IMG/VR virus record: IMGVR_UViG_3300027566_000003
DNA from: a virus
Lineage: Duplodnaviria; Caudoviricetes
Reading direction: 5' to 3' (one strand)
DNA: 64,000 nt
Shown here: one piece after another, positions 13,188 to 22,916 of the stretch
Layout: the number at the start of each line of letters is the position of its first letter
How positions within the stretch are numbered: position 1 is the stretch's first letter
The notes under the pieces: generated by a model
What the model was told of the DNA's origin: nothing
Databases searched by the model: none
Seen by the model: the letters and a program-made list of their open reading frames with translations, nothing else
Position numbers and translations under genes: made by a program

Positions 13188-14744
13188 TTATTTATTAGAT
13201 GTTTCTTCCTCTTTAATATTATTAATTGTATAATCTAAACCAAACTCAACATAATTGCCTAATACCTTTCTTACATAATTTTGGGTAGTAGTTCCCGAAA
13301 CTATCTTTCCATCACCTCTGAAGATTTTATTCTTCCACAAAGGGCAATCTGGTTGAAGAACATTCCCTTCCCACCCATCAATTTTGATAGTGTTTTTAAA
13401 TGTCATTAATTTAGATTCCCAATCTTCTTTTCCATACAGTCTAGCACTCGCAGAGATATAACCATGAAACATTAGTAATTCTAGAATTAGATTATCTTGA
13501 TTACGCGCTTTTTCTCTTTCTTCTAATGACATATTTCCAAAGTAATCAGGATACATACTAATTAGTTTATTAAAGAATGCAACTAAATGTTTGGTAATGG
13601 AATCGACTGAATCCTCTGTTGAAATCTTATAACTCTTTTTAATTGCATCATCTAAGGTTGAGAATGTTACTATATGATTAGTTTTCTTTGTTGATGTTTT
13701 ATCAATTTCCACTTTATTACGCAATACGCTTGTTAAAAGTGACCTTACAATCATATTGGAATAATCATCAATATCAAGATACTTAACCTTTGAAGAAGAA
13801 ATTTTAGTTGGAGTAGCACCGTATTCAGAGAACAAAATTCCGGCTTTTGGCTCCGGCATGCGTTCTATTGCTACGATGAAGTTATACTCCCAAGGACTAG
13901 GAAGGGATTTGTTTTTCTCCCATTTCCGTAACCAGTATTGACTTGTATAAATACGATGCCACCCATCAACCGCATCAAGATATCCTGTACCAGTTAGTGT
14001 GTTATTATTATCTTCGTCAAATTCAATTTCGTTTATAATATTTCCATTTTCATTTTTTAGAATTCTTGCGTTTAAAGTAATCAACATGCCGTTCAGCTCA
14101 CCAGAAATTAGTTTGGAGTAAATTTGTCTTATCTTTGATGTGCTAATTTTTGGTGTAAACCCCTTCGCTTTTTTGACTAATCCTCTCTGTGTATTTTTGT
14201 TGTAAAAAATTTGCCCTTCGTTTGCCATGGTAGCAAGTAATCCTGCTGACATATGGCAAGAATATTTTTTTACTTGTTTGTTGATAAAAAGTGGTTTAAC
14301 ATCTTCAATTTCCCATTCTACTAAATCATTTTCTTTATTCTTCTCCCCCTTCGTCTCATCTTTTTCATTTTTATCACTTATATTACTCATCGAAGGAAAA
14401 TCTCCTTTATCATCATTATTATCACCTTTATCATTTACCAAATCTAAATTACCCATCTTCAAACTAGCCTCCGCTCCCAATTTTTCCATATCCTCTTCGC
14501 TCATATCTTTATAAACATTAACACCATTTACCATTTTCATCCCCATATCACTATCTCCTTTCAAATTATCGTTCCCATTATCAGTAATTTCCTTTAAACC
14601 CTCAATATCGTCTAAACTATACTGTACAATATTTTTATCATCCCAAGGTTCGTCTATTGGTGTCTTGCTCATATTATGCTCATCTTCCTTTTGTTGTGTT
14701 TGTTGTGTTTGTGGTTCCAATCTCCTAACTAATTTTAGTTTCAA
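13188..14744 (-). CDS. DGQHR/DndB-like (ParB/Srx superfamily) protein with an acidic N-terminal region
   Basis: YNKNTQRG, ITLNAR and LDAVDGWHRI motifs; Asp/Glu/Lys-rich N-terminal ~140 aa. Confidence 0.6.
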   Translation of the reverse strand: MKLKLVRRLEPQTQQTQQKEDEHNMSKTPIDEPWDDKNIVQYSLDDIEGLKEITDNGNDNLKGDSDMGMKMVNGVNVYKDMSEEDMEKLGAEASLKMGNLDLVNDKGDNNDDKGDFPSMSNISDKNEKDETKGEKNKENDLVEWEIEDVKPLFINKQVKKYSCHMSAGLLATMANEGQIFYNKNTQRGLVKKAKGFTPKISTSKIRQIYSKLISGELNGMLITLNARILKNENGNIINEIEFDEDNNNTLTGTGYLDAVDGWHRIYTSQYWLRKWEKNKSLPSPWEYNFIVAIERMPEPKAGILFSEYGATPTKISSSKVKYLDIDDYSNMIVRSLLTSVLRNKVEIDKTSTKKTNHIVTFSTLDDAIKKSYKISTEDSVDSITKHLVAFFNKLISMYPDYFGNMSLEEREKARNQDNLILELLMFHGYISASARLYGKEDWESKLMTFKNTIKIDGWEGNVLQPDCPLWKNKIFRGDGKIVSGTTTQNYVRKVLGNYVEFGLDYTINNIKEEETSNK

Positions 14745-14836: not shown

Positions 14837-14865
14837 AAAAAAGAGTGAACCTGTCACTCTCTTAA
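14837..14865 (-). terminator. Terminator closing the transfer-like operon
   Basis: Minus strand GAGAGTGA-CAGGT-TCACTCTT followed by a T run. Confidence 0.7.
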
Positions 14866-15030
14866 TCAATAGGTAACCCCTTTTTCTCTTAAAAATTCTT
14901 CTTCAGCAACTAAAATTGCTTTAATAATACCCTCATCTATATTCACTCTATTAGAAATAAACTCAATCATTTCGTCAACATCAATTGATGGTTTACTAAA
15001 ACCACTAATTAAATTACTTACAAATCCCAT
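14866..15030 (-). CDS. Small acidic hypothetical protein (54 aa), last gene of the transfer-like operon
   Basis: MGFVSNLISG...EEEFLREKGVTY with an upstream GGAGA/GGGTGA RBS; below the ORF-track cutoff. Confidence 0.5.
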   Translation of the reverse strand: MGFVSNLISGFSKPSIDVDEMIEFISNRVNIDEGIIKAILVAEEEFLREKGVTY

Positions 15031-15043
15031 TCACCCACATCTC

Positions 15044-15808
15044 CTATATCTTCCAGATAACAATATCTTTAATTAATCTGATCCTTTTCATATTAGGATA
15101 TCTAGTCCAAATATAAAAATTTTCTCTCAATTCTTCGACTTTAGCAATATTAACTTTCTTATCTAAACTAATCAGTCTATTAAATCCTCTTTCATTCGCC
15201 AACCAAAATAATTGAGGGAATCCCTTTACTTTCATAGACGCCTTCTCATAAACATTAATCTTATCCTTCAATTGTTTCTTGCTTTCTGTTCCAGCATCTA
15301 TCTCAAATAATAAAGTAGTATCTACATTTCCTTTCTCTAAGATAGCTAAAATATCAGACCTAAAGATATATTCTTTCTTTTCTTCTCTGTCTACAAATTT
15401 ATATACAAATTCAGGTTTATATTGTTTGACAATAATTTGATTAAGTCTTTGCTCACGAAACAATAAGGCATAAATCTCATTTACTAATAATTGATGAGTA
15501 TAATCAGATGGTAATCTTGATATATAAGTTCCACCTGCTTCACATAATAACTTTCCAGCAGTAATCAAGAACTCACCATTTAAGGTAATAGGAGTTCTAT
15601 TAATAAATCCTAGTTTTTCAATTTTAGCTAATCTACGATTACATATATTTAAACTTTGTTTAGTAGGGAAAAACATAATTTGAATTTGACTTCTAGATAT
15701 AATTTGCAAATCTCTTACTGTTTTAATTATCTCTAAATCTCGGTCTGTTAAATCTCGGTACTTTTGCCCCAAAATCAACTTCTTCAACATTAAATCTTTG
15801 TTGTTCAT
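15044..15808 (-). CDS. Replication-relaxation (Replic_Relax / MOBC-like) relaxase-family protein
   Basis: LTDRD..I.......SRSQI..MFF....CNRRL.K (wHTH); HQL.VNE; RSD...EID.GTES..QL..K...Y (PD-(D/E)xK-like). Confidence 0.8.
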   Translation of the reverse strand: MNNKDLMLKKLILGQKYRDLTDRDLEIIKTVRDLQIISRSQIQIMFFPTKQSLNICNRRLAKIEKLGFINRTPITLNGEFLITAGKLLCEAGGTYISRLPSDYTHQLLVNEIYALLFREQRLNQIIVKQYKPEFVYKFVDREEKKEYIFRSDILAILEKGNVDTTLLFEIDAGTESKKQLKDKINVYEKASMKVKGFPQLFWLANERGFNRLISLDKKVNIAKVEELRENFYIWTRYPNMKRIRLIKDIVIWKI

Positions 15809-17426
15809 TATTGTTTACCTCCATTGAGAAGTCTGGTTCTGGTACATAATCTGATTCTAAAATTTCTTCCATGATTTCATCTATATAACGTAAATATTTT
15901 TGACTATTTTCTATGATTATATCAGGTATTTTCTTTCGTATATGTTTTGCAGGAGGATCACATTTAATAATAGATACACTCTTTTCACTTTTATATAAGA
16001 ATCTACATAACGCATGATATTTTGGTAAATTAAGAAGAGAGAATCTAACTTGCATATCTTTATCTTCGTCACCAGTTTCAAATTCTTTGTATAAGGTTTG
16101 TGCTCCACCCCGCCCTATGGCAAATGATATAATTTGAGGATTAACTTCCAGCATCATTCTAATAACTGATTGTAATTGCGTTTGCTCTGGAGATTGGAAG
16201 AAGAAATGAAGTCCAAACCTGTACTTCCTCATTTCTGTGAGCATTTCTTCTATCCCTGCTTCATTAGATAGGTACATTTGAGGTTCATCTAGAAAGGCGA
16301 AGAAAGGTCTTCTTAAATTAGTATTTGTTGTGTCAAATCTTGACAATGCTGCAATCCAAAATTTTGAAAGAATCAAAGGTATTAGAATTTCAATATTAAC
16401 TTTCCCAACTGCAACTTTTGGTGCTTTGATTAATAATATTTTTCCACTATCCATAATTTCTCTGAAATCAATAGTTGATTTATTTTGGCATATAATAGAT
16501 TTTAAATAATCATTGTTAGTTAGATTGCCAACTTTATTTAATAAAGGTTTAACTATATCTCTTTTAACTGAAGGGGATTGCGCTTCAAATCTATCCCAAT
16601 ATCTAACTATAGAATTATTTCTTTTATTTTTTCTTAAAGATGTTAATATTTGTTCACGATAATCAGATTCAGTTAACATTTTGATAATTCCTAATAATGT
16701 CTTAGGATAATCAGTTTGTTTTAATATTGCATTAAGTGAGTTTGATAAAAGGTCTTCACTTGCAAATCCAATTTGTTCCCCAAATCTTTTCTTAAAGAAT
16801 GAGATAATTTCTGCGTGAATAAAGTGAGGGAATTGCTTTTCAACTTTTTCATCAAATTCTAAGAGGTTAATACCCGGAAGGAAATTCTTATTTGAAAAGT
16901 CTAATAATACAACATCTTCTAATCTATGGTCAGGAAGAGTCATTAAAATATTATCAATTAATGCTCCGTCTGCAACATCAACAACACAAAATCCTGCTGT
17001 ATTGAAATTTGGTAAATTATTAATTTTAGCAATTTGGATAGAAATACTTTCCGCTAAATTTGATTTGCCACTGCCGGGAGCACCAACATATATAAAGTTT
17101 TTACATAAATCATCAAAATGATCTATAGGATAATTAAGAATATTTTTAGTGTTAAAATCTTTGCCAACAATTATTCCATTGCCTCTAAGAAGGAATTTAC
17201 TTGGAGTAAGGGCAACTTTTTCATTTAGCATATTTTTATTACTTTCAAATTTCAAATCAGGCAATTTATAGTCTGGAACGCTTAATCCAAAAACGCCATT
17301 AGATACAAGTTGAACAGCATAACCTAAACTACCCAAAACAAATTTTCCACTATAAAGAGCAGAGTATTTTCCAGATTTAATTATAGCATCTTTAATCTTT
17401 TCAATTTTTTCACCCACTATATCCAA
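15723..17426 (-). CDS. VirD4/TraD-like type IV coupling ATPase
   Basis: Walker A GAPGSGKS; VVD.ADG; all-alpha insert; L.NKVG; IDFREIMDSGKILL; Walker B FLDEPQ; EMRKY..G..F..QS. Confidence 0.8.
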   Translation of the reverse strand: MDIVGEKIEKIKDAIIKSGKYSALYSGKFVLGSLGYAVQLVSNGVFGLSVPDYKLPDLKFESNKNMLNEKVALTPSKFLLRGNGIIVGKDFNTKNILNYPIDHFDDLCKNFIYVGAPGSGKSNLAESISIQIAKINNLPNFNTAGFCVVDVADGALIDNILMTLPDHRLEDVVLLDFSNKNFLPGINLLEFDEKVEKQFPHFIHAEIISFFKKRFGEQIGFASEDLLSNSLNAILKQTDYPKTLLGIIKMLTESDYREQILTSLRKNKRNNSIVRYWDRFEAQSPSVKRDIVKPLLNKVGNLTNNDYLKSIICQNKSTIDFREIMDSGKILLIKAPKVAVGKVNIEILIPLILSKFWIAALSRFDTTNTNLRRPFFAFLDEPQMYLSNEAGIEEMLTEMRKYRFGLHFFFQSPEQTQLQSVIRMMLEVNPQIISFAIGRGGAQTLYKEFETGDEDKDMQVRFSLLNLPKYHALCRFLYKSEKSVSIIKCDPPAKHIRKKIPDIIIENSQKYLRYIDEIMEEILESDYVPEPDFSMEVNNNEQQRFNVEEVDFGAKVPRFNRPRFRDN

Positions 17427-18918
17427 CCCCTTTCATCTCCTCATAATTGGTATTAAATAATAGATATTCATCATTGCTAAATATTGGCCTAAAGGCATAT
17501 TGTTGATTCCCTATAGTCATCCAACCTTGGCCTTTTTCTATTTGAGAAAGATATTCGATTATATGTGAAGGAATATTCATATAATCATTAATCTGTTGAA
17601 GTTCTAAAGAAGTTAAATGAAGTATTAAAGTATTAGCACAATTTTTAATAATAAGCTCTATATCTTCTTTAGATGTGTCAGAGATGTTTTGAGTACAGAC
17701 AAAAATCCCCACACCCTTCTTGCGATATCCTTTAGCAATAGCAACAACCCTTTTGATAACTGTATCAGTTTTTAAAATATCCCATGCTTCGTCTATGACA
17801 ATCAAACAATCTTTAAAATCTGTATCTAAAAGAAACTTTTCAAAATCTTTAGAAATAATGATTATATTCTTAGAAGATAAGTTTGCATATTCTCCAGTAA
17901 TATCCAATATATAAATTTTCTTATGGTCTGATATTTTTTTGATTATTGACTTAACAGCGAACGATTTGCCACTTCCTGAAATTCCAAAGATAAACCATGA
18001 TTGATTAAATTGTTCAGCAAAATTAATCTTGATTAGTTGATGGTTTTGATAATCATATCCAATAGTGATGCCATCTTTAGAAACATATCTAATAAAAGGA
18101 TAGAAATTACTGATTATACTTGTCAAAAAAGGTTTTAAGTTTTGCACATAATCAATTTCTTTATATGCTCTAAAATTTTTAAAGTAATTAAAGTGTTCGC
18201 AATTAGTAAACTTAAATCTAATTTGCATACCATCTAAAAGCATAGATATTTGTTTTGTTTTTATCTCCAATGATTCAAGAGTCTGCCCTTTAATTAAAAT
18301 ATAAAATCCAATCATACAAAGTTTTTCTTCATTCCCCATTAAATCAACCATTGTTTTTTGCAGTTTATCAACAATTTCATCTTCTACAAAGAATTCTTGA
18401 TTTGGAGTCTTAGAAGCTTTCCAATTGACATTTGCTTCAGTAATATCTAATCTCTTTTTAATAGTCCTTATAGCCTCATCTTGTGGCAATGGGAAGATTG
18501 TAAGAGCAATCTCGGTATCAGGAATCATTAAAGTATTAATAAATCCAATCTGAAGCATTTGAGGAAATTGGACAATTTTAACAGATTTAGCAAAGTATTT
18601 TTCTCCATTTTCAATAATAGAGATATAATTTCTATGCTCTTTGATTTGAATATTATTTGGAATAGGACATTTGTTTTGAGTGTATTCTATTCCTGAATTT
18701 CGTAAATTTTCATATATATTAGCATTAGTAATCAAGTAATAATAAGGTTCATTGATGTTAGTATCCTTATTAATTTGATTTAATTCTGTTTTACATATTA
18801 ATCTAGATGGTTCATTTAGAGAATTTAATAGATATTTAAACTTGAACCGCAATATTTTCTGTCCGTCTTTTGTTTCTAAAAGATAGTTTGCTCTTGGGTA
18901 TAGGCTGTATTGAAACAT
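17410..18918 (-). CDS. VirB4-like ATPase (compact)
   Basis: Walker A GISGSGKS, LDITGEY, Walker B VIDEAW, RKKG....TQ; N-terminal region resembles Gram-positive VirB4/TrsE; follows a PrgI gene. Confidence 0.75.
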   Translation of the reverse strand: MFQYSLYPRANYLLETKDGQKILRFKFKYLLNSLNEPSRLICKTELNQINKDTNINEPYYYLITNANIYENLRNSGIEYTQNKCPIPNNIQIKEHRNYISIIENGEKYFAKSVKIVQFPQMLQIGFINTLMIPDTEIALTIFPLPQDEAIRTIKKRLDITEANVNWKASKTPNQEFFVEDEIVDKLQKTMVDLMGNEEKLCMIGFYILIKGQTLESLEIKTKQISMLLDGMQIRFKFTNCEHFNYFKNFRAYKEIDYVQNLKPFLTSIISNFYPFIRYVSKDGITIGYDYQNHQLIKINFAEQFNQSWFIFGISGSGKSFAVKSIIKKISDHKKIYILDITGEYANLSSKNIIIISKDFEKFLLDTDFKDCLIVIDEAWDILKTDTVIKRVVAIAKGYRKKGVGIFVCTQNISDTSKEDIELIIKNCANTLILHLTSLELQQINDYMNIPSHIIEYLSQIEKGQGWMTIGNQQYAFRPIFSNDEYLLFNTNYEEMKGVGYSG

Positions 18919-19186
18919 TTTGTTTGGTCACTCCTCTCCATTGAAATTTAAAAAAGGACAATATCCCATAATCAATATCAGTTTTAGTGAGTATAGCAGT
19001 AGGAATTCCAATATTAGGGATGATTAGTATTTTTGCTACTAAAGGCAGAGAAGTAATATTAAATACTAATAAACCAATTGCAATTCCACCTACAAGATAA
19101 ATTGTTTGTTTACCTGAAAGTCCATAAAACATTTCATCTTTCATCTCAATAATTTGATTAGTGTCAAACATTTCCGTAACAAACAT
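18836..19186 (-). CDS. PrgI / VirB3-like membrane protein
   Basis: E.KDE.FYGLS.KQ.IYL followed by two TM helices; immediately upstream of VirB4. Confidence 0.65.
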   Translation of the reverse strand: MFVTEMFDTNQIIEMKDEMFYGLSGKQTIYLVGGIAIGLLVFNITSLPLVAKILIIPNIGIPTAILTKTDIDYGILSFFKFQWRGVTKQNVSIQPIPKSKLSFRNKRRTENIAVQV

Positions 19187-19193
19187 TTAATAA

Positions 19194-20231
19194 TTACCTC
19201 CTTTTAGCAGAACTCATAGTTCTACTTCGCATACTTCTTCCCATACTTCCAAGTCTACCATAACCAATAAGTTTTCTAGGATTTAAACCATATTTGATCT
19301 CTTTAAACATTTGTACAGGGTTTGGACTTTGATGTCCAAAACTGATCCAATTTTGTACATACGAAGGCGCTTTAAGCATGAATGAACCACAAGATATACA
19401 GAGCATGATATGATATAATTCTCCATGAGATGATTTAGATATAGATGAATTAAATCCTAACCAAATAACCATGATTATCGCATGAATGATAGGTGCTTGT
19501 AGATTATCTAATAATTCATCTATCCATATTTGTCTCATATTTTGATGTTTAGGGAACAACCATAAGAAGAAAAATATTGGTGCTGTAGCAATAAGAAACA
19601 TAATAGAAATCATTCTCATGAAATAAAACCATATGAGATTTATTAAGATTAATGCAAAAATTAGAGTGAATATAATTAATCCAAAACCATACTGAGGAGT
19701 TAGAGATTTTATCATTTCTGCTTCTGAACCACCAATAGAGAGAATTGCTATAGTGAATTTGTTAACGACTTCTATTAAAATGGGTAATACCATTATGACA
19801 ATATTTATAATGATCATAGATTGAACTATTTTTACACAATATTCTGTAGATTGATATTTATTACCTTTATTTGCAATTTGCATTATTCCAAAATATACTA
19901 TTCCTGCAAATGTGAAAGATATTATGATTTTTAAGAAGAAAAAATATAGAGTTAATATTGTGGGATTTTCTGCTAATACATTTGGTGTGTGAAGAAATAA
20001 TTGTGCAAAGTTTTGTACTAATGAATCAGTGATAAAATGTTCAAGTTTCCCATTTACTGTAGAAATGTCATTAGATGTGGGTGCTTTAACTAGTGCATCA
20101 TGAACATTTTGTACTGTTTCTGGTGATGGTGAATTAAACAATACTTCATGCACTTTATTAATTGTTTCTGTAGAGGGAGGAGTGATGAAAAATTTAACAA
20201 CAGCATCTCCTACTTCTCCAATAGTAAGCAT
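19194..20231 (-). CDS. VirB6/TrbL-like polytopic membrane protein
   Basis: About 5-6 TM helices with YFMR...I..L...API...LW..P...W motif; operon position. Confidence 0.65.
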   Translation of the reverse strand: MLTIGEVGDAVVKFFITPPSTETINKVHEVLFNSPSPETVQNVHDALVKAPTSNDISTVNGKLEHFITDSLVQNFAQLFLHTPNVLAENPTILTLYFFFLKIIISFTFAGIVYFGIMQIANKGNKYQSTEYCVKIVQSMIIINIVIMVLPILIEVVNKFTIAILSIGGSEAEMIKSLTPQYGFGLIIFTLIFALILINLIWFYFMRMISIMFLIATAPIFFFLWLFPKHQNMRQIWIDELLDNLQAPIIHAIIMVIWLGFNSSISKSSHGELYHIMLCISCGSFMLKAPSYVQNWISFGHQSPNPVQMFKEIKYGLNPRKLIGYGRLGSMGRSMRSRTMSSAKRR

Positions 20232-20261
20232 AAAACCATCTCTTTTCTATATTTAATATAA

Positions 20262-20513
20262 TTAAAATTTAGGCAATGTTGGAAAAATTCCTTTGAGTAG
20301 TTTCCATAAAATAAATATAACCCAGGGGCCTACGATAATGGTTATACAGCCTCGAATAACCGATTCCTTTAATTCCTTGGCCTGTGTCTTCCAATTTCCA
20401 TTTCCAATTATATCCATTATTCCTGACCAGACGATCATGCACATAGCCAATCCTCCACCAACAGCAGTCATAGCCAAACATATCTTCATTGACCAACTTA
20501 AAAATTCATTCAT
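20262..20513 (-). CDS. VirB2/TrbC-like pilin-type small membrane protein
   Basis: AAAGGAGG RBS before the ATG at 20513; 83 aa with two hydrophobic helices split by a K..AK..K loop; first gene of the operon. Confidence 0.6.
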   Translation of the reverse strand: MNEFLSWSMKICLAMTAVGGGLAMCMIVWSGIMDIIGNGNWKTQAKELKESVIRGCITIIVGPWVIFILWKLLKGIFPTLPKF

Positions 20514-20770
20514 GATAAATCCTCCTTTGAAAAAGATTACAGCGAAAGTCGCCCCACGCATTCTTATAAAGAGATTCTTTATAAGAAGAGTTCATTTTTT
20601 GAATTTGAAAACCATTGCGTACCAATGGTTGTAGGATTTAGGGTGTGTTTTAGGTAATACAATAGGTTAATATAGGGTTCTTGTCTTAAAAATTTCAGAA
20701 TTCATGTATATTCGACAATATTTTGGACACAATATGATTTAACAAATTAAATTTAAGGAGCGTGAAATAT

Positions 20771-20881
20771 ATGTTTGTAGTATTTTCTTTAATTGGATCG
20801 GTAGTTGGAGTTGGATTAATAGGTTATGGTGGGAGTCAGTTAATCGATATAGCACATCAATTAGTTAAGCTTGCACAATAA
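20771..20881 (+). CDS. 36-aa hydrophobic peptide (type I toxin-like or exclusion peptide candidate)
   Basis: AAGGAG RBS; MFVVFSLIGSVVGVGLIGYGGSQLIDIAHQLVKLAQ; followed by its own terminator. Confidence 0.55.
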   Translation: MFVVFSLIGSVVGVGLIGYGGSQLIDIAHQLVKLAQ

Positions 20882-20893
20882 GCCCTTTCGCAA

Positions 20894-20921
20894 AACCCTC
20901 TTTTGAGGGTTATTTTTTTTT
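20894..20921 (+). terminator. Intrinsic terminator
   Basis: AACCCTC-TTTT-GAGGGTT followed by a long T run. Confidence 0.8.
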
Positions 20922-20957
20922 GCAATTTTTTCTTAATTTATACATAAAACTCACTCC

Positions 20958-21197
20958 TTAAATATCCTTAATTTCATTAATGCCTAATTCACTAATATAA
21001 TAAGTTTTACTTTGTCTTTCTTTATAACCATTTTTAACCATACCTATATTACACAAGTGCATCAAATTATTGCGTACCCTTAGATTGTTCAATCCTACAT
21101 CTTTTGAGATATTACTAATAGTACGACTGTTGATTGGATCAATTAAACCATCTTTGAGCAATAATTTAAGAATATCTATCTCTACTTTGTTTAGCAT
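20958..21197 (-). CDS. Small winged-HTH DNA-binding protein
   Basis: I.ILKLL...TISNISKDVGL...VRNNL..L...G.V..G.....KTYYISELG. Confidence 0.65.
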   Translation of the reverse strand: MLNKVEIDILKLLLKDGLIDPINSRTISNISKDVGLNNLRVRNNLMHLCNIGMVKNGYKERQSKTYYISELGINEIKDI

Positions 21198-21672: not shown

Positions 21673-22035
21673 CTAATCAGAGCTTTGGCAAATATCATTT
21701 AAAAATTTATTAATTTTAGTTTTTGGTTTTGTCTCAAATTCTTTAATCTCATTTCCATTTTCATTAACAATCTCGGGTTTCTCAGTTTGTACTAATACTT
21801 TTCCTTTTAACGCTTCTTGAATTTGAGTTTTAATTTCTTGCTTAATCGTTTCAGATAATTCGATATTTCCATTGGCTTTTTCTCCTTCGCTAATTCCAAG
21901 ATATTCTCTAATCTTATCTTTTACCCATTTGCTAAAATTATCAGTTCCATTATTAGCAAATTCCCATTCCTTACTTTCTTCTACGATGTTAAAATAAACT
22001 AATTTCCCTTTACCTGATTCTTTTGATTTTCCCAT
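21673..22035 (-). CDS. ParR-like adaptor (RHH-type DNA-binding protein)
   Basis: Small gene overlapping the parM 3' end; NFSKWVKDKIREYL motif; probable start ATG at 22035. Confidence 0.6.
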   Translation of the reverse strand: MGKSKESGKGKLVYFNIVEESKEWEFANNGTDNFSKWVKDKIREYLGISEGEKANGNIELSETIKQEIKTQIQEALKGKVLVQTEKPEIVNENGNEIKEFETKPKTKINKFLNDICQSSD

Positions 22036-22916
22036 GAAGCCACCGCCATTTTCAAGAATCCTCTTGAATTTGCCCACACTGGATTATTCACAGTTTTTGA
22101 ATTAGGAAATTCTTTTTTGAAATATTCTTCAAGTAATATAGAACCTCCACCTGCTAATATCAGTATATCATCTTTTTCTAAATCCATCCAGAAATTAGAA
22201 CACTCAGATATAATTTTATTATACCAATCTTCAAGTTGATCAGGATTTGGGTTTTTACTATTGCATATATTTTTAGTTAATTCTAACATGCCAATTTCTA
22301 AAGTGGTTGATTGAGAATTTATCCATCCCTGATTATCCATTACTCCAATATTTGTTGTCTTTGAACCTAAGTCAATTATTCTAATCCTTTCTTCTGTATA
22401 TTCAGCATCATCATTTATACTTCCATCTTGGTTTAACCACATATCCCACACACTACCGCCACCTTCAGGGATGATAAATAAATGATTTTTAAGTATAGTA
22501 AATTCATTAATTAAACCTTCATTGATAGATATTTTATAAGTCCCACAAAGTAAATCACTAAAGTCTTTTCTTATCTTTGGTGTATACTGATTTATAGGTA
22601 AACCAACTCCAATAATCGGTAATTTATCTTCACATAAAATTCCAATTCCTGTAGCAAAAATAATTTTTGTTTCTAAGTTAAGTTTACTTATAGTAGTTTT
22701 TTGTCTTTTGATACGTGATTCTCTTTTTGCCAAATCACCAACAAAATATTTTTTACCATTAAACTCTATTCTATAATTATTATTACTTCCATCACTTAAA
22801 TGAAGATTGTTCCAGTTCCCTACTTCATTAGGGATTTTAACATTTAGATTTTCATCAATCCAAAACTTACCTTTGTCTCTTCCAATATCTGCCCCAATGA
22901 CTTGTTGACCAATCAT
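21999..22916 (-). CDS. parM: ParM/StbA-family actin-like partition ATPase
   Basis: Actin-fold motifs: IGADIGR..GK (phosphate 1), IPEGGG, IIDLGS.TT (phosphate 2), LAGGGS (adenosine), WAN.RGF. Confidence 0.85.
   Translation of the reverse strand: MIGQQVIGADIGRDKGKFWIDENLNVKIPNEVGNWNNLHLSDGSNNNYRIEFNGKKYFVGDLAKRESRIKRQKTTISKLNLETKIIFATGIGILCEDKLPIIGVGLPINQYTPKIRKDFSDLLCGTYKISINEGLINEFTILKNHLFIIPEGGGSVWDMWLNQDGSINDDAEYTEERIRIIDLGSKTTNIGVMDNQGWINSQSTTLEIGMLELTKNICNSKNPNPDQLEDWYNKIISECSNFWMDLEKDDILILAGGGSILLEEYFKKEFPNSKTVNNPVWANSRGFLKMAVASWENQKNQVKGN

What the first reader, a model, noticed from the sequence alone, without database searches (positions are those of the whole stretch)
14866..20513. 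Minimal conjugation-like operon (VirB2-VirB6-PrgI-VirB4-VirD4-MOBC-like relaxase) inside a virion-encoding phage genome
Seen: six overlapping or abutting minus-strand genes in the order pilin-like, polytopic membrane protein, PrgI, Walker A/B ATPase, coupling-type ATPase, Replic_Relax protein, closed by a terminator at 14837-14865. Tail, endolysin and holin genes lie on one side and an SPbeta-like replisome on the other. Established: this gene order is the core of Gram-positive T4SSs, and Replic_Relax covers MOBC-type relaxases encoded next to their coupling protein. No VirB1-type wall hydrolase or VirB8-like gene is visible. Inference: a phage that can also move by cell contact, or a repurposed DNA-translocation machine. 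The adjacent phage endolysin might substitute for the missing hydrolase.
Basis: partly seen in the sequence, partly recalled or inferred. Interest (0 to 1): 0.9.

Follow-up and report, generated by a model that had tools for sequence, protein, structure and literature searches.

The report
Phage-borne minimal type IV secretion operon
A roughly 237-kb temperate phage, probably of a Clostridium host, carries an intact, selection-maintained set of conjugation-type DNA-transfer genes that turns out to be a recurring but functionally unexplained module of phages infecting spore-forming bacteria, not a one-off capture from a plasmid.

Summary
Seven co-directional genes (20513-14866, minus strand) end at a terminator. 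They encode a pilin-like protein, a VirB6/TrbL-like membrane protein, a PrgI/VirB3-like protein, a VirB4 ATPase, a VirD4/TrwB-type coupling ATPase, a Replic_Relax (MOBC-type) wHTH-nuclease and a 54-aa protein. The six core genes are syntenic in four related metagenomic phage lineages, with dN/dS 0.07-0.20.

The operon is not a recent plasmid capture. Its closest curated relatives are phage proteins (phage G gp146 and gp153-156). A reduced form (small membrane proteins, a long coupling ATPase, in 65 records also Replic_Relax) occurs in 146 phage records, including the virulent SPO1, CP-51 and SPP1. The surveyed Replic_Relax-bearing modules usually lie near an actin-like or tubulin-like partition gene. 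Hosts are endospore formers in 145 of 146 records. Three sister phages carry a secreted M23 wall hydrolase just upstream, which this window has lost.

The most likely role is export of nicked phage DNA across the membrane into an adjacent compartment. Whether that is a neighbouring cell or the forespore is unresolved. This scan met related phage cassettes before on other DNA (e1-3544790, e1-5350770, e1-5350852).

The parts
20262..20513 (-). 83-aa pilin-like (VirB2/TrbC-like) protein with two hydrophobic helices; first gene of the operon
   Evidence: ORF and RBS. Two TM segments. No Pfam hit. phrog_3528 at 3.4e-7. Atlas feature search gives TrbC/VirB2 and T4SS_pilin clusters at 0.89-0.90, a lead only. 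dN/dS 0.07-0.12.
19194..20231 (-). 345-aa polytopic VirB6/TrbL-like membrane protein
   Evidence: At least 4 TM segments. blastp 3e-10 to phage G gp153, which matches Pfam TrbL_4 at 44.4 bits against a cut-off of 27. Atlas gives TrbL_3/4/5 clusters at 0.92 with 205 shared features. dN/dS 0.15-0.18.
18836..19186 (-). 116-aa PrgI/VirB3-like membrane protein
   Evidence: Pfam PrgI 25.4 bits, under the cut-off of 27. The orthologue in L007 scores 21.9 bits. Complex prediction with the VirB4-like protein gives weak support: 0.47 against a best control of 0.00. dN/dS about 0.2.
17410..18918 (-). VirB4-like ATPase, 502 aa from the first start; gene callers use the start at 18852, giving 480 aa
   Evidence: DUF87 at 1.5e-10 and P-loop_TraG at 27.7 bits, above the cut-off of 25.8. 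PDB 4ag5 VirB4 at 3.2e-5. Phage G gp155 at 6e-33 over 93% of the length. dN/dS 0.09-0.12.
15723..17426 (-). 567-aa type IV coupling protein (VirD4/TrwB-like) ATPase
   Evidence: No Pfam hit alone. A profile of homologues hits TrwB at 2.8e-9 and IcmO/DotL at 8.4e-9. Of 20 aligned sequences, 15-17 carry TrwB_AAD_bind or TraG-D_C. The AF2 model (pLDDT 77.7) has TM 0.60-0.67 to TrwB, with a helical insert at 193-327. phrog_5156 at 4e-68. dN/dS 0.08-0.16.
15044..15808 (-). Replic_Relax (MOBC-type) protein: N-terminal winged helix plus a PD-(D/E)XK-like domain. It overlaps the coupling-protein gene.
   Evidence: Pfam PF13814 at 41.2 bits. Invariant D152, K183 and Y187, with a conserved E-x-D-x-G-T-E block. 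AF2 model pLDDT 78; residues 12-92 match MarR-type wHTH at Z 10.2. dN/dS 0.10-0.14.
14866..15030 (-). 54-aa acidic helical protein, last gene of the operon, conserved in relatives
   Evidence: Present after the Replic_Relax gene in L005, L006, L009, L010-L014 and L015. dN/dS 0.25-0.40. No family match.
14839..14863 (-). Intrinsic terminator closing the operon
   Evidence: 10-pair stem, 5-nt loop and T run.
20562..20864 (-). Conserved upstream control region. It holds a -10-like TATATT (20669-20674) and an invariant block TGTCGAATATACATG containing a Spo0A-box heptamer (20711-20717).
   Evidence: About 70% DNA identity to relatives, with invariant blocks. The heptamer count in the window is not above chance, 6 against 3.7. 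In sister phages the M23 and DUF7678 genes lie just upstream of this region.
21999..22916 (-). Actin-like (ALP/ParM) partition ATPase in a linked operon. A 134-aa adaptor candidate follows at 21673-22077 and an HTH gene at 20958-21197.
   Evidence: ALP_N 64.3 bits. The same linkage of ALP to the coupling ATPase and Replic_Relax is seen in SPO1, CP-51, Thrax3, 0305phi8-36, L010 and L015.

Best explanation
This is a genuine, functional, minimal monoderm-type type IV secretion and DNA-processing module. It is an old accessory module of phages infecting endospore-forming Firmicutes, not a recent capture from a conjugative plasmid.

Proposed mechanism:
- The Replic_Relax protein (winged helix plus PD-(D/E)XK-type nuclease) binds and nicks a specific site on phage DNA.
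- The translationally coupled VirD4/TrwB-type hexameric ATPase receives this nucleoprotein.
- The VirB4 ATPase, with the VirB3-like, VirB6-like and pilin-like membrane proteins, forms the cytoplasmic-membrane channel. In sister phages a secreted M23 peptidase is added.
- Phage DNA is pumped out of the infected or lysogenic cell compartment into an adjacent membrane-bounded compartment.
- The linked actin-like (elsewhere tubulin-like) partition system would bring the phage DNA to the site.

Shown here: gene identities, intact motifs, purifying selection, synteny, distribution and linkage. Inferred: nicking, DNA export and the destination. The destination, a neighbouring vegetative cell (virion-free spread) or the forespore (virospore formation), is unresolved, and I rate the two about equally.
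For: Identity:
- VirB4.
- Coupling protein.
- VirB6/TrbL by transitive match and atlas features.
- PrgI, marginal, in two orthologues.
- Replic_Relax, which is CONJscan MobC (PMC5357655), with conserved acidic residues, lysine and tyrosine and a wHTH.
- Walker motifs intact.

Maintenance: six-gene synteny in L009, L010-L014, L015 and L007/L008, with dN/dS 0.07-0.20 at dS about 1. GC content equals the rest of the phage.

Phage ancestry:
- Phage G holds gp146, gp153, gp155 and gp156 homologues.
- L108 has the same set.
- 146 phage records hold the long coupling ATPase, and 65 hold the abutting Replic_Relax gene.
- The best plasmid hits reach only 24% identity.

Envelope-crossing apparatus: a secreted M23 peptidase with intact HxxxD and HxH motifs lies upstream of the pilin-like gene in three sister lineages. 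A homologous M23 sits in the same position in Thrax3.

Link to DNA positioning: an ALP lies next to the module in the window, L010, L015, SPO1, CP-51, Thrax3 and 0305phi8-36. A TubZ-type tubulin takes that place in L108 and L109.

Not virion parts: phage G gp155 and gp156 are absent from the virion proteome (PMC12484599).
Against: - No transfer, nicking or localisation has been measured for any member. The phage G authors call the function entirely unknown, and the SPP1 authors say it remains to be established.
- The window itself lacks the M23 hydrolase, and no VirB8-like scaffold or adhesin is seen.
- The coupling protein has no clear transmembrane anchor.
- Most phages carry only the reduced form without VirB4 or VirB6, so the ATPase/Replic_Relax pair may work without a secretion channel.
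- SPP1 gp32 is dispensable for lytic growth.
- The pilin-like and VirB3-like assignments rest on sub-threshold or feature-based matches.
- The fold search cannot separate the coupling protein from HerA by E-value.
Confidence: 0.55

Rival explanations
1. One reading: true conjugation. The phage (as prophage, plasmid or replicating genome) is nicked at an oriT and passed to a neighbouring cell through the T4SS, giving a virion-free route of spread.
For: The relaxase-family protein, coupling protein and VirB4 are all present with VirB6-, VirB3- and pilin-like partners. Sister phages have a dedicated secreted M23 wall hydrolase. The MOBC + VirD4 + serine integrase layout resembles streptococcal class-8 IMEs. 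A pilin, long coupling ATPase and Replic_Relax-like trio also occurs on large C. botulinum plasmids. The phage has partition and integration genes.
Against: Homologous modules occur in strictly virulent phages (SPO1, CP-51, SPP1), where lysogen-to-recipient conjugation makes little sense. There is no VirB8-like protein or adhesin, and the hydrolase is lost in this window. [quoted passage not shown] No oriT was identified.
Confidence: 0.25
2. Forespore delivery: the apparatus acts across the sporulation septum. [quoted passage not shown]
For: Hosts of 145 of 146 phage records with the long coupling ATPase are endospore formers: Bacillus, Geobacillus, Lysinibacillus, Alicyclobacillus, Brevibacillus and Clostridium. 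No staphylococcal, listerial, streptococcal or lactococcal phage appears, even within Herelleviridae. SPO1 forms virospores, and its ParM gp27.9, which sits in this module, was already suspected (PMC12991052). The module is linked to pole-directed cytoskeletal partition genes. The SPP1 homologue is an early, non-essential gene. A Spo0A-box heptamer lies in an invariant block of the operon's upstream region in three of the four lineages; the fourth has one mismatch. L109 carries SpoIIID and a SpoIIIAC-like small protein beside its module. The likely host here is Clostridium.
Against: The host pattern may only reflect gene exchange among phages that share hosts. The Spo0A box is a single 7-mer, not enriched in the window, and absent upstream of the SPO1, CP-51 and G modules. 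phi29-type entrapment works without such genes. No experiment links these genes to entrapment.
Confidence: 0.25
3. Plasmid-style maintenance only. Replic_Relax is a nicking replication initiator and the coupling-type ATPase is an intracellular DNA motor. Together with ParM or TubZ they replicate, resolve and partition the phage genome in the plasmid or carrier state, and nothing is exported.
For: Several Bacillus phage papers describe these genes as plasmid replication and segregation functions (PMC9658697, PMC7685451, PMC9703825). PHROGs and RefSeq label the family 'replication initiation by nicking'. The module is consistently linked to partition genes, and in Thrax3 to a recombinase and a Rep gene.
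Against: This does not explain why VirB4, VirB6-, VirB3- and pilin-like membrane proteins and a secreted M23 peptidase are kept under purifying selection. The phage has a full replisome of its own.
Confidence: 0.15
4. Another trans-membrane role: active completion of genome entry, export of a protein effector, or exclusion of incoming DNA (superinfection or conjugation exclusion).
For: [quoted passage not shown] T4SS relatives do import DNA (ComB and Ced systems; my own knowledge). The module is not a virion component in phage G.
Against: A site-specific nuclease-type partner and the linkage to partition genes are not expected for these roles. No effector or immunity gene is evident.
Confidence: 0.1
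5. Misannotated packaging motor, dead relic or assembly chimera.
For: phrog_2666, the best PHROG for the VirB4-like protein, is labelled 'terminase large subunit'.
Against: Motifs are intact and dN/dS is 0.07-0.20. The same junctions occur in independent assemblies. Earlier scan notes report a separate TerL elsewhere on the same contig (e1-5390127, unverified). The membrane partners and Replic_Relax do not fit a terminase.
Confidence: 0.03

Closest known systems
Bacillus phage G gp146 and gp149-gp156 (TraC-like and TraD-like ORFs; PMC12484599)
   Same: The same component set: a VirB6/TrbL_4 protein (gp153), a small protein (gp154), VirB4 (gp155, 6e-33), a coupling ATPase (gp156) and Replic_Relax (gp146, 2e-10), in a jumbo phage of a spore former. 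Function unknown, and the proteins are not in the virion.
   Different: In phage G the coupling ATPase is the long 825-aa form with an N-terminal DUF8128 region, and the Replic_Relax gene is separate and on the opposite strand. Identity is only 22-25%. The window's operon is compact and translationally coupled.
SPP1 genes 31, 31.1, 31.2 and 32, and SPO1 gp29.1 and gp27.9-gp27.3 (also CP-51 gp97-gp90, Tsamsa/Thrax and 0305phi8-36)
   Same: A homologous coupling-type ATPase preceded by small membrane proteins. In SPO1-like, Tsamsa-like and 0305phi8-36 phages there is also an abutting Replic_Relax gene and an upstream actin-like partition gene, as in the window. Thrax3 has an M23 peptidase like the window's sister phages.
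   Different: These phages lack the VirB4, VirB6-like and PrgI-like genes. Their ATPase is 800-935 aa with an extra N-terminal domain that the window's 567-aa protein lacks. Several are strictly virulent. SPP1 has no Replic_Relax partner.
Monoderm conjugative T4SSs (pCF10 Prg/Pcf, pIP501 Tra, ICEBs1 Con; MPF-FATA/FA types)
   Same: VirB6-VirB3-VirB4 gene order, a VirD4-type coupling protein, and a relaxase gene next to the coupling-protein gene. In sister phages there is also a wall hydrolase.
   Different: No VirB8-like scaffold, no adhesin, and no hydrolase in this window. All matches are remote (sub-threshold or profile-only for four of six proteins). The module is resident in a virion-forming phage.
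MOBC relaxases with a VirD4 partner (pAD1 TraX, CloDF13 MobC; streptococcal IME class 8, PMC5357655)
   Same: PF13814 family, a restriction-endonuclease-like core with an N-terminal DNA-binding domain, encoded next to a VirD4-type ATPase in an element with a serine integrase.
   Different: Only 11 of 263 related clusters reach E 1e-10, so the protein is very divergent. Relaxase activity and an oriT are not shown. An invariant tyrosine (Y187) has unknown meaning.
Large Clostridium botulinum/sporogenes plasmids (pCLK-type)
   Same: A TrbC/VirB2 protein, an 800-aa coupling-type ATPase (24% identity) and a downstream Replic_Relax-like ORF, in a Clostridium host.
   Different: The downstream ORF matches no Pfam family and lacks the acidic motif. 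No VirB4 or VirB6 is adjacent. The element is a plasmid, not a phage.

Membership tests
Monoderm conjugative T4SS (CONJscan-style: VirB4 + coupling protein + relaxase + MPF accessories) | VirB4-family ATPase | tested here: met
   DUF87 42 bits and P-loop_TraG 27.7 bits, both above cut-off. PDB VirB4 4ag5 at 3.2e-5. Walker A and B intact.
Monoderm conjugative T4SS (CONJscan-style: VirB4 + coupling protein + relaxase + MPF accessories) | VirD4/TrwB-type coupling protein (nucleotide-binding domain with an inserted all-alpha domain) | tested here: met
   Profile hits TrwB at 2.8e-9 and DotL at 8.4e-9. Aligned homologues carry TrwB_AAD_bind, T4SS-DNA_transf and TraG-D_C. The AF2 model has TM 0.60-0.67 to TrwB and a helical insert at 193-327. 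The single sequence fails Pfam, and HerA scores similar E-values.
Monoderm conjugative T4SS (CONJscan-style: VirB4 + coupling protein + relaxase + MPF accessories) | VirB6/TrbL polytopic channel protein | tested here: met
   No direct Pfam hit. blastp 3e-10 to phage G gp153, which matches TrbL_4 at 44.4 bits against a cut-off of 27. Atlas gives TrbL_3/4/5 clusters at 0.92. The L108 homologous module has a TrbL_3/4 protein.
Monoderm conjugative T4SS (CONJscan-style: VirB4 + coupling protein + relaxase + MPF accessories) | VirB3/PrgI-like small membrane protein upstream of VirB4 | tested here: inconclusive
   PrgI at 25.4 bits, below the cut-off of 27. The L007 orthologue scores 21.9 bits. The predicted complex with VirB4 has weak support only: 0.47 against a best control of 0.00.
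Monoderm conjugative T4SS (CONJscan-style: VirB4 + coupling protein + relaxase + MPF accessories) | VirB2/TrbC-like pilin | tested here: inconclusive
   Two-helix hairpin topology. No Pfam match. Atlas feature scores of 0.89-0.90 are a lead only. The positional equivalent in pCLK is TrbC at 28.5 bits.
Monoderm conjugative T4SS (CONJscan-style: VirB4 + coupling protein + relaxase + MPF accessories) | Dedicated peptidoglycan hydrolase (VirB1 role) | tested here: not met
   No hydrolase lies in the window's operon, and tblastn with the sister M23 finds nothing in the window. It is present as a secreted M23 in L009, L010-L014 and L015, and in Thrax3.
Monoderm conjugative T4SS (CONJscan-style: VirB4 + coupling protein + relaxase + MPF accessories) | VirB8-like scaffold (PrgL/TraM/ConB) and surface adhesin | tested here: not met
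   All seven operon ORFs are accounted for and none gives such a match in Pfam or PHROGs. The rest of the 237-kb genome was not available.
Monoderm conjugative T4SS (CONJscan-style: VirB4 + coupling protein + relaxase + MPF accessories) | oriT and demonstrated cell-to-cell transfer | not testable with these tools
   Only candidate repeats and a conserved upstream block were seen. No experiment was possible.
MOBC relaxases (Replic_Relax, PF13814) | Match to PF13814 above the curated cut-off | tested here: met
   41.2 bits against 25.3. Orthologues and phage homologues also match. PF13814 equals CONJscan MobC (PMC5357655).
MOBC relaxases (Replic_Relax, PF13814) | N-terminal DNA-binding domain plus a PD-(D/E)XK-type catalytic core with conserved acidic residues and lysine | tested here: met
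   wHTH at Z 10.2 to MarR, residues 12-92. Invariant D152 and K183, with a conserved E-x-D-x-G-T-E block. Foldseek gives only weak nuclease hits such as Bax1, FokI and BbvCI, so the core fold itself is inferred.
MOBC relaxases (Replic_Relax, PF13814) | Site-specific nicking at oriT | not testable with these tools
   Needs biochemistry.
Phage long coupling ATPase family (SPP1 gp32, SPO1 gp27.4, phrog_5156) | Homologous C-terminal ATPase preceded by small membrane-protein genes | tested here: met
   phrog_5156 at 4e-68. CP-51 gp91 at 2e-38 and SPO1 gp27.4 at 4e-31. Small TM genes lie upstream in all of them.
Phage long coupling ATPase family (SPP1 gp32, SPO1 gp27.4, phrog_5156) | N-terminal domain of about 370 aa (DUF8128) | tested here: not met
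   The window protein aligns only to profile positions 368-809 of 824 and to residues about 395-853 of CP-51 gp91. In its place there is a separate VirB4 gene.

The most novel reading that the evidence does not exclude
These phages are the first viruses with a working conjugation-type apparatus. They pass a relaxase-piloted copy of their genome through a minimal T4SS without virions, either into neighbouring cells in a chain or biofilm, or across the sporulation septum into the forespore. This would explain how even virulent phages such as SPO1 become entrapped in spores.
Probability: 0.3. Interest if true: 0.9.

Novelty: new variant of a known kind. Interest (0 to 1): 0.66.

Why it matters
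[quoted passage not shown] Yet this phage clade, phage G and related contigs carry a relaxase-family protein, a coupling protein and VirB4, together with channel proteins. In sister phages there is also a wall hydrolase.

The comparative picture assembled here links three things:
- a T4SS-derived module;
- cytoskeletal partition genes, actin-like in some phages and tubulin-like in others;
- hosts that form endospores.

I found no paper that states this combination. It turns scattered 'function unknown' annotations in SPP1, SPO1, CP-51, Tsamsa-like phages and phage G into one testable question, using model phages in which the genes can be deleted. Either answer would be a new route of phage transmission or persistence: virion-free spread between cells, or active delivery into the forespore.

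Tried and rejected
- DNA-level search of the operon against INPHARED phages found no match.
- No whole genome is held for the window, so the capsid and terminase claims rest on unverified earlier notes and on the 236,919-bp contig length.
- tblastn with the window's Replic_Relax protein found only phage G. The word-indexed homologue search gave only close relatives. The exhaustive profile search gave unnamed, mostly remote clusters.
- The genome-contig scan returned only Patescibacteria-type coupling ATPases at about 30% identity. None had module partners detectable with my small HMMs, and there was no isolate prophage, so no host came from that route.
- Ten remote IMG/VR loci carried only the ATPase and were uninformative.
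- Foldseek of the Replic_Relax model gave no hit at E <= 0.001. The wide structural search was dominated by the wHTH domain, and the nuclease domain was not folded separately.
- The sequencing-run search found only the probable source, a groundwater metagenome, with no RNA.
- Spo0A boxes are not enriched in the window and are absent upstream of the SPO1, CP-51 and G modules. I keep this as a lead only.
- The 'terminase' label of phrog_2666 was rejected as a misannotation.
- Chimeric assembly was rejected.

Full report
**Observation**

The minus strand between 20513 and 14866 carries seven abutting or overlapping ORFs:
- an 83-aa protein with two hydrophobic helices, with a GGAGG site 8 nt before the ATG at 20513;
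- a 345-aa polytopic protein;
- a 116-aa protein with one TM segment;
- a 502-aa ATPase (480 aa from the start that gene callers use);
- a 567-aa ATPase;
- a 254-aa protein;
- a 54-aa protein.

A stem-loop with a T run at 14863-14839 closes the set.

Pfam results:
- The 254-aa protein is Replic_Relax at 41.2 bits (cut-off 25.3).
- The 502-aa protein matches DUF87 and P-loop_TraG above cut-off, with AAA_10 just below.
- The 116-aa protein matches PrgI at 25.4 bits, just under the cut-off of 27.
- The other three proteins match nothing on their own.

The neighbourhood is phage. On one side lie a tail protein, a GH24 endolysin and an anti-repressor. On the other lie a serine integrase, topoisomerase II, RNR, a DNA polymerase III alpha-like protein, a RecJ-like exonuclease and a helicase. 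An actin-like ALP/ParM gene with a small downstream gene lies just upstream, at 22916-21673.

**Placing the unassigned proteins**

- The 502-aa protein hits the solved VirB4 of Thermoanaerobacter (4ag5, 3.2e-5).
- A 20-sequence profile of the 567-aa protein hits TrwB (2.8e-9) and IcmO/DotL (8.4e-9) best. Fifteen to seventeen of the aligned sequences carry TrwB_AAD_bind or TraG-D_C.
- Its AF2 model (pLDDT 77.7) superposes best, by target-normalised TM (0.60-0.67), on TrwB. HerA chains have similar E-values. The model has a helical insert at 193-327 where coupling proteins carry their all-alpha domain.
- The 345-aa protein is related to phage G gp153 (3e-10), which matches TrbL_4 at 44.4 bits. 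The atlas feature search points uniformly to TrbL families (0.92).
- The 83-aa protein gets only a feature-level lead to TrbC/VirB2 and T4SS_pilin.
- A complex prediction of the PrgI-like protein with the VirB4-like protein gave weak support. The score was 0.47 against a best control of 0.00. That mark was reached by 51 of 78 solved complexes and 2 of 108 mismatched pairs. At 0.60 or under, however, it was reached by only 5 of those 78 and by all 4 mismatches that passed. The runs agree in at least 77% of contacts, and the partner's pLDDT is at least 60.
- The Replic_Relax protein has a MarR-type winged helix at residues 12-92 (Z 10.2). It also has invariant D152, K183 and Y187, plus a conserved E-x-D-x-G-T-E block. 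This fits its published assignment to the PD-(D/E)XK superfamily (PMC3424549) and to CONJscan MobC (PMC5357655).

**The genes are maintained**

- The identical operon lies on contigs from two other JGI samples.
- Relatives at 72-87% identity sit on IMG/VR contigs of 230, 227 and 139 kb, and the window's own protein is on a 236,919-bp contig.
- All eight genes from the pilin-like gene to a downstream DndB-like gene are syntenic in three related lineages.
- The six core genes recur, at 35-48% identity, on a 72-kb contig with a quite different replisome (PolA, DnaB, primase).
- Pairwise dN/dS is 0.07-0.20 for the six core genes at dS near 1.
- GC content matches the rest of the window.

**The module is a phage module**

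- tblastn of the coupling ATPase finds 125 phage records, almost all Bacillus phages.
- The VirB4-like protein finds phage G gp155 over 93% of its length, but only partial hits on five plasmids.
- The best plasmid match of the coupling ATPase is 24% identity, on C. botulinum plasmids.
- Phage G carries a VirB6-like protein (gp153), VirB4 (gp155), a coupling ATPase (gp156) and Replic_Relax (gp146, 89 bits). Its authors call gp155 and gp156 TraC- and TraD-like, absent from the virion proteome, with a function 'entirely unknown' (PMC12484599).
- SPO1 has, in order: a pilin-like protein (gp29.1), an actin-like protein (gp27.9: ALP_N 96 bits plus Alp7A_C), gp27.8, three tiny membrane proteins, a 906-aa coupling-type ATPase (gp27.4) and Replic_Relax (gp27.3, 47.5 bits). 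CP-51 is the same.
- With SPO1 gp27.3 as query, 65 phage records of 117-498 kb carry Replic_Relax, nearly always abutting the P-loop gene. They include SPO1-like, CP-51-like and Tsamsa/Thrax/Izhevsk/Kirov-like phages, FADO-like phages, phage G and 0305phi8-36.
- With gp27.4 as query, 146 records match, including SPP1 gp32. SPP1 gp32 is an early, non-essential 836-aa protein. Its authors proposed that it forms a trans-membrane translocon with gp31.1 and gp31.2 (PMC6316719).

**Two linkages not stated in the papers I could find**

First, a cytoskeletal partition gene accompanies the module.
- It is an ALP in the window, L010, L015, SPO1, CP-51, Thrax3 and 0305phi8-36.
- It is a TubZ-type tubulin in L108, which has the full VirB6/VirB4/coupling-ATPase set, and in L109.
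- Two unrelated filament systems in the same position argue for a functional link, not an inherited one.

Second, a wall hydrolase belongs to the module.
- L009, L010-L014 and L015 all carry DUF7678 plus a 193-aa M23 peptidase directly upstream of the pilin-like gene. The peptidase has a signal sequence and intact HxxxD and HxH motifs.
- Thrax3 has a 34%-identical M23 in the equivalent place.
- DNA alignment shows that the window lacks this roughly 1.3-kb segment, while the flanks align.
It is not a feature of the system.

**Hosts**

Of the 146 records, 145 are from phages of endospore formers. One is a Microcystis phage. From my own knowledge, the collection holds thousands of staphylococcal, streptococcal, lactococcal, listerial and enterococcal phages, including Herelleviridae, and none appears. 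The window's endolysin has its named relatives in Clostridium species. The only run holding the DNA is a groundwater metagenome.

**What it does**

Sequence cannot settle the function. The component set is what a monoderm T4SS needs to move relaxase-bound DNA across the donor membrane and wall: a site-specific nuclease with a DNA-binding domain, a translationally coupled coupling ATPase, VirB4, VirB3-, VirB6- and pilin-like membrane proteins, and in relatives a secreted hydrolase. I therefore commit to DNA export into an adjacent compartment (confidence about 0.55).

The evidence bears on three readings:
- Against classical conjugation as the whole story: virulent phages carry the reduced module, and no VirB8-like protein or adhesin is present. 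A 2025 review notes that no conjugative phage is known (PMC12282955).
- For the forespore alternative: the host pattern; virospore formation by SPO1, with its ParM already suspected (PMC12991052); and the link to partition genes. As a weak lead, a Spo0A-box heptamer sits inside an invariant 15-nt block upstream of the operon. That box is not seen at the SPO1, CP-51 or G modules.
- A pure maintenance role, as assumed in several genome papers, does not explain the conserved membrane and wall components.

**Earlier scan notes**

- e1-3544790, on another genome, reached the same SPP1/SPO1 connection for a smaller cassette. I confirmed that connection independently.
- e1-5350770 and e1-5350852 describe other tailed phages with conjugation cassettes. 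I did not test those.

**Verdict**

This is a fuller, compact variant of a phage module that the literature has noticed piecemeal and never explained. It is now directly testable in SPO1, SPP1 and phage G.

Noticed in passing
window 20864-21108, against L015:5065-6594, L010:4667-6960 and L009:432-1310: The window lacks a segment of about 1.3 kb that in three sister phages encodes a DUF7678 protein and a secreted, motif-intact M23 peptidase just upstream of the T4SS-like operon.
   Followed up: yes
window 20711-20717 (minus strand): A perfect Spo0A-box heptamer TGTCGAA lies inside a 15-nt block (TGTCGAATATACATG) that is invariant in the window, L015 and L009, with one mismatch in L010. It sits about 45 bp upstream of a conserved TATATT. 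The heptamer is not enriched window-wide (6 against 3.7 expected).
   Followed up: partly
window 20561-20587: A perfect 12-nt inverted repeat (TTCTTATAAAGA n3 TCTTTATAAGAA) lies between the promoter-like site and the pilin-like gene. The alignment shows it is an insertion peculiar to the window, so it is a possible operator.
   Followed up: partly
window 13188-14744 (minus strand): A 518-aa gene (phrog_5732 at 3e-40; a precomputed DndB/PF14072 hit on the identical protein) follows the operon in all close relatives. It is only 25-32% identical between them (dN/dS about 0.4), while its neighbours are 72-87% identical. It is a fast-evolving slot, perhaps defence or counter-defence.
   Followed up: partly
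L109:7065-9756 and L109:16819-17130: A 56-kb phage contig has a tubulin gene, a small protein hitting SpoIIIAC, a 447-aa ORF and Replic_Relax in a row, plus a SpoIIID homologue. That places sporulation-type genes beside a reduced module.
   Followed up: no
L026-L105 (genome contigs): The nearest cellular relatives of the coupling ATPase (about 30% identity) are chromosomal genes widespread in Patescibacteria/CPR, many with the same DUF8128 N-terminal domain as the phage long form.
   Followed up: partly
L004:7568-11149 (C. botulinum pCLK): Large botulinum-toxin plasmids carry a TrbC/VirB2 gene, an 800-aa coupling-type ATPase and a downstream 197-aa ORF. An iterated HMM recruits that ORF to Replic_Relax, but it lacks the acidic motif and any Pfam hit.
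   Followed up: partly
PHROGs and RefSeq annotation of homologues: phrog_2666, which covers VirB4-like proteins, is labelled 'terminase large subunit'. Replic_Relax homologues are propagated in RefSeq phage records as 'replication initiation by nicking'. Neither label rests on an experiment that I could find.
   Followed up: no
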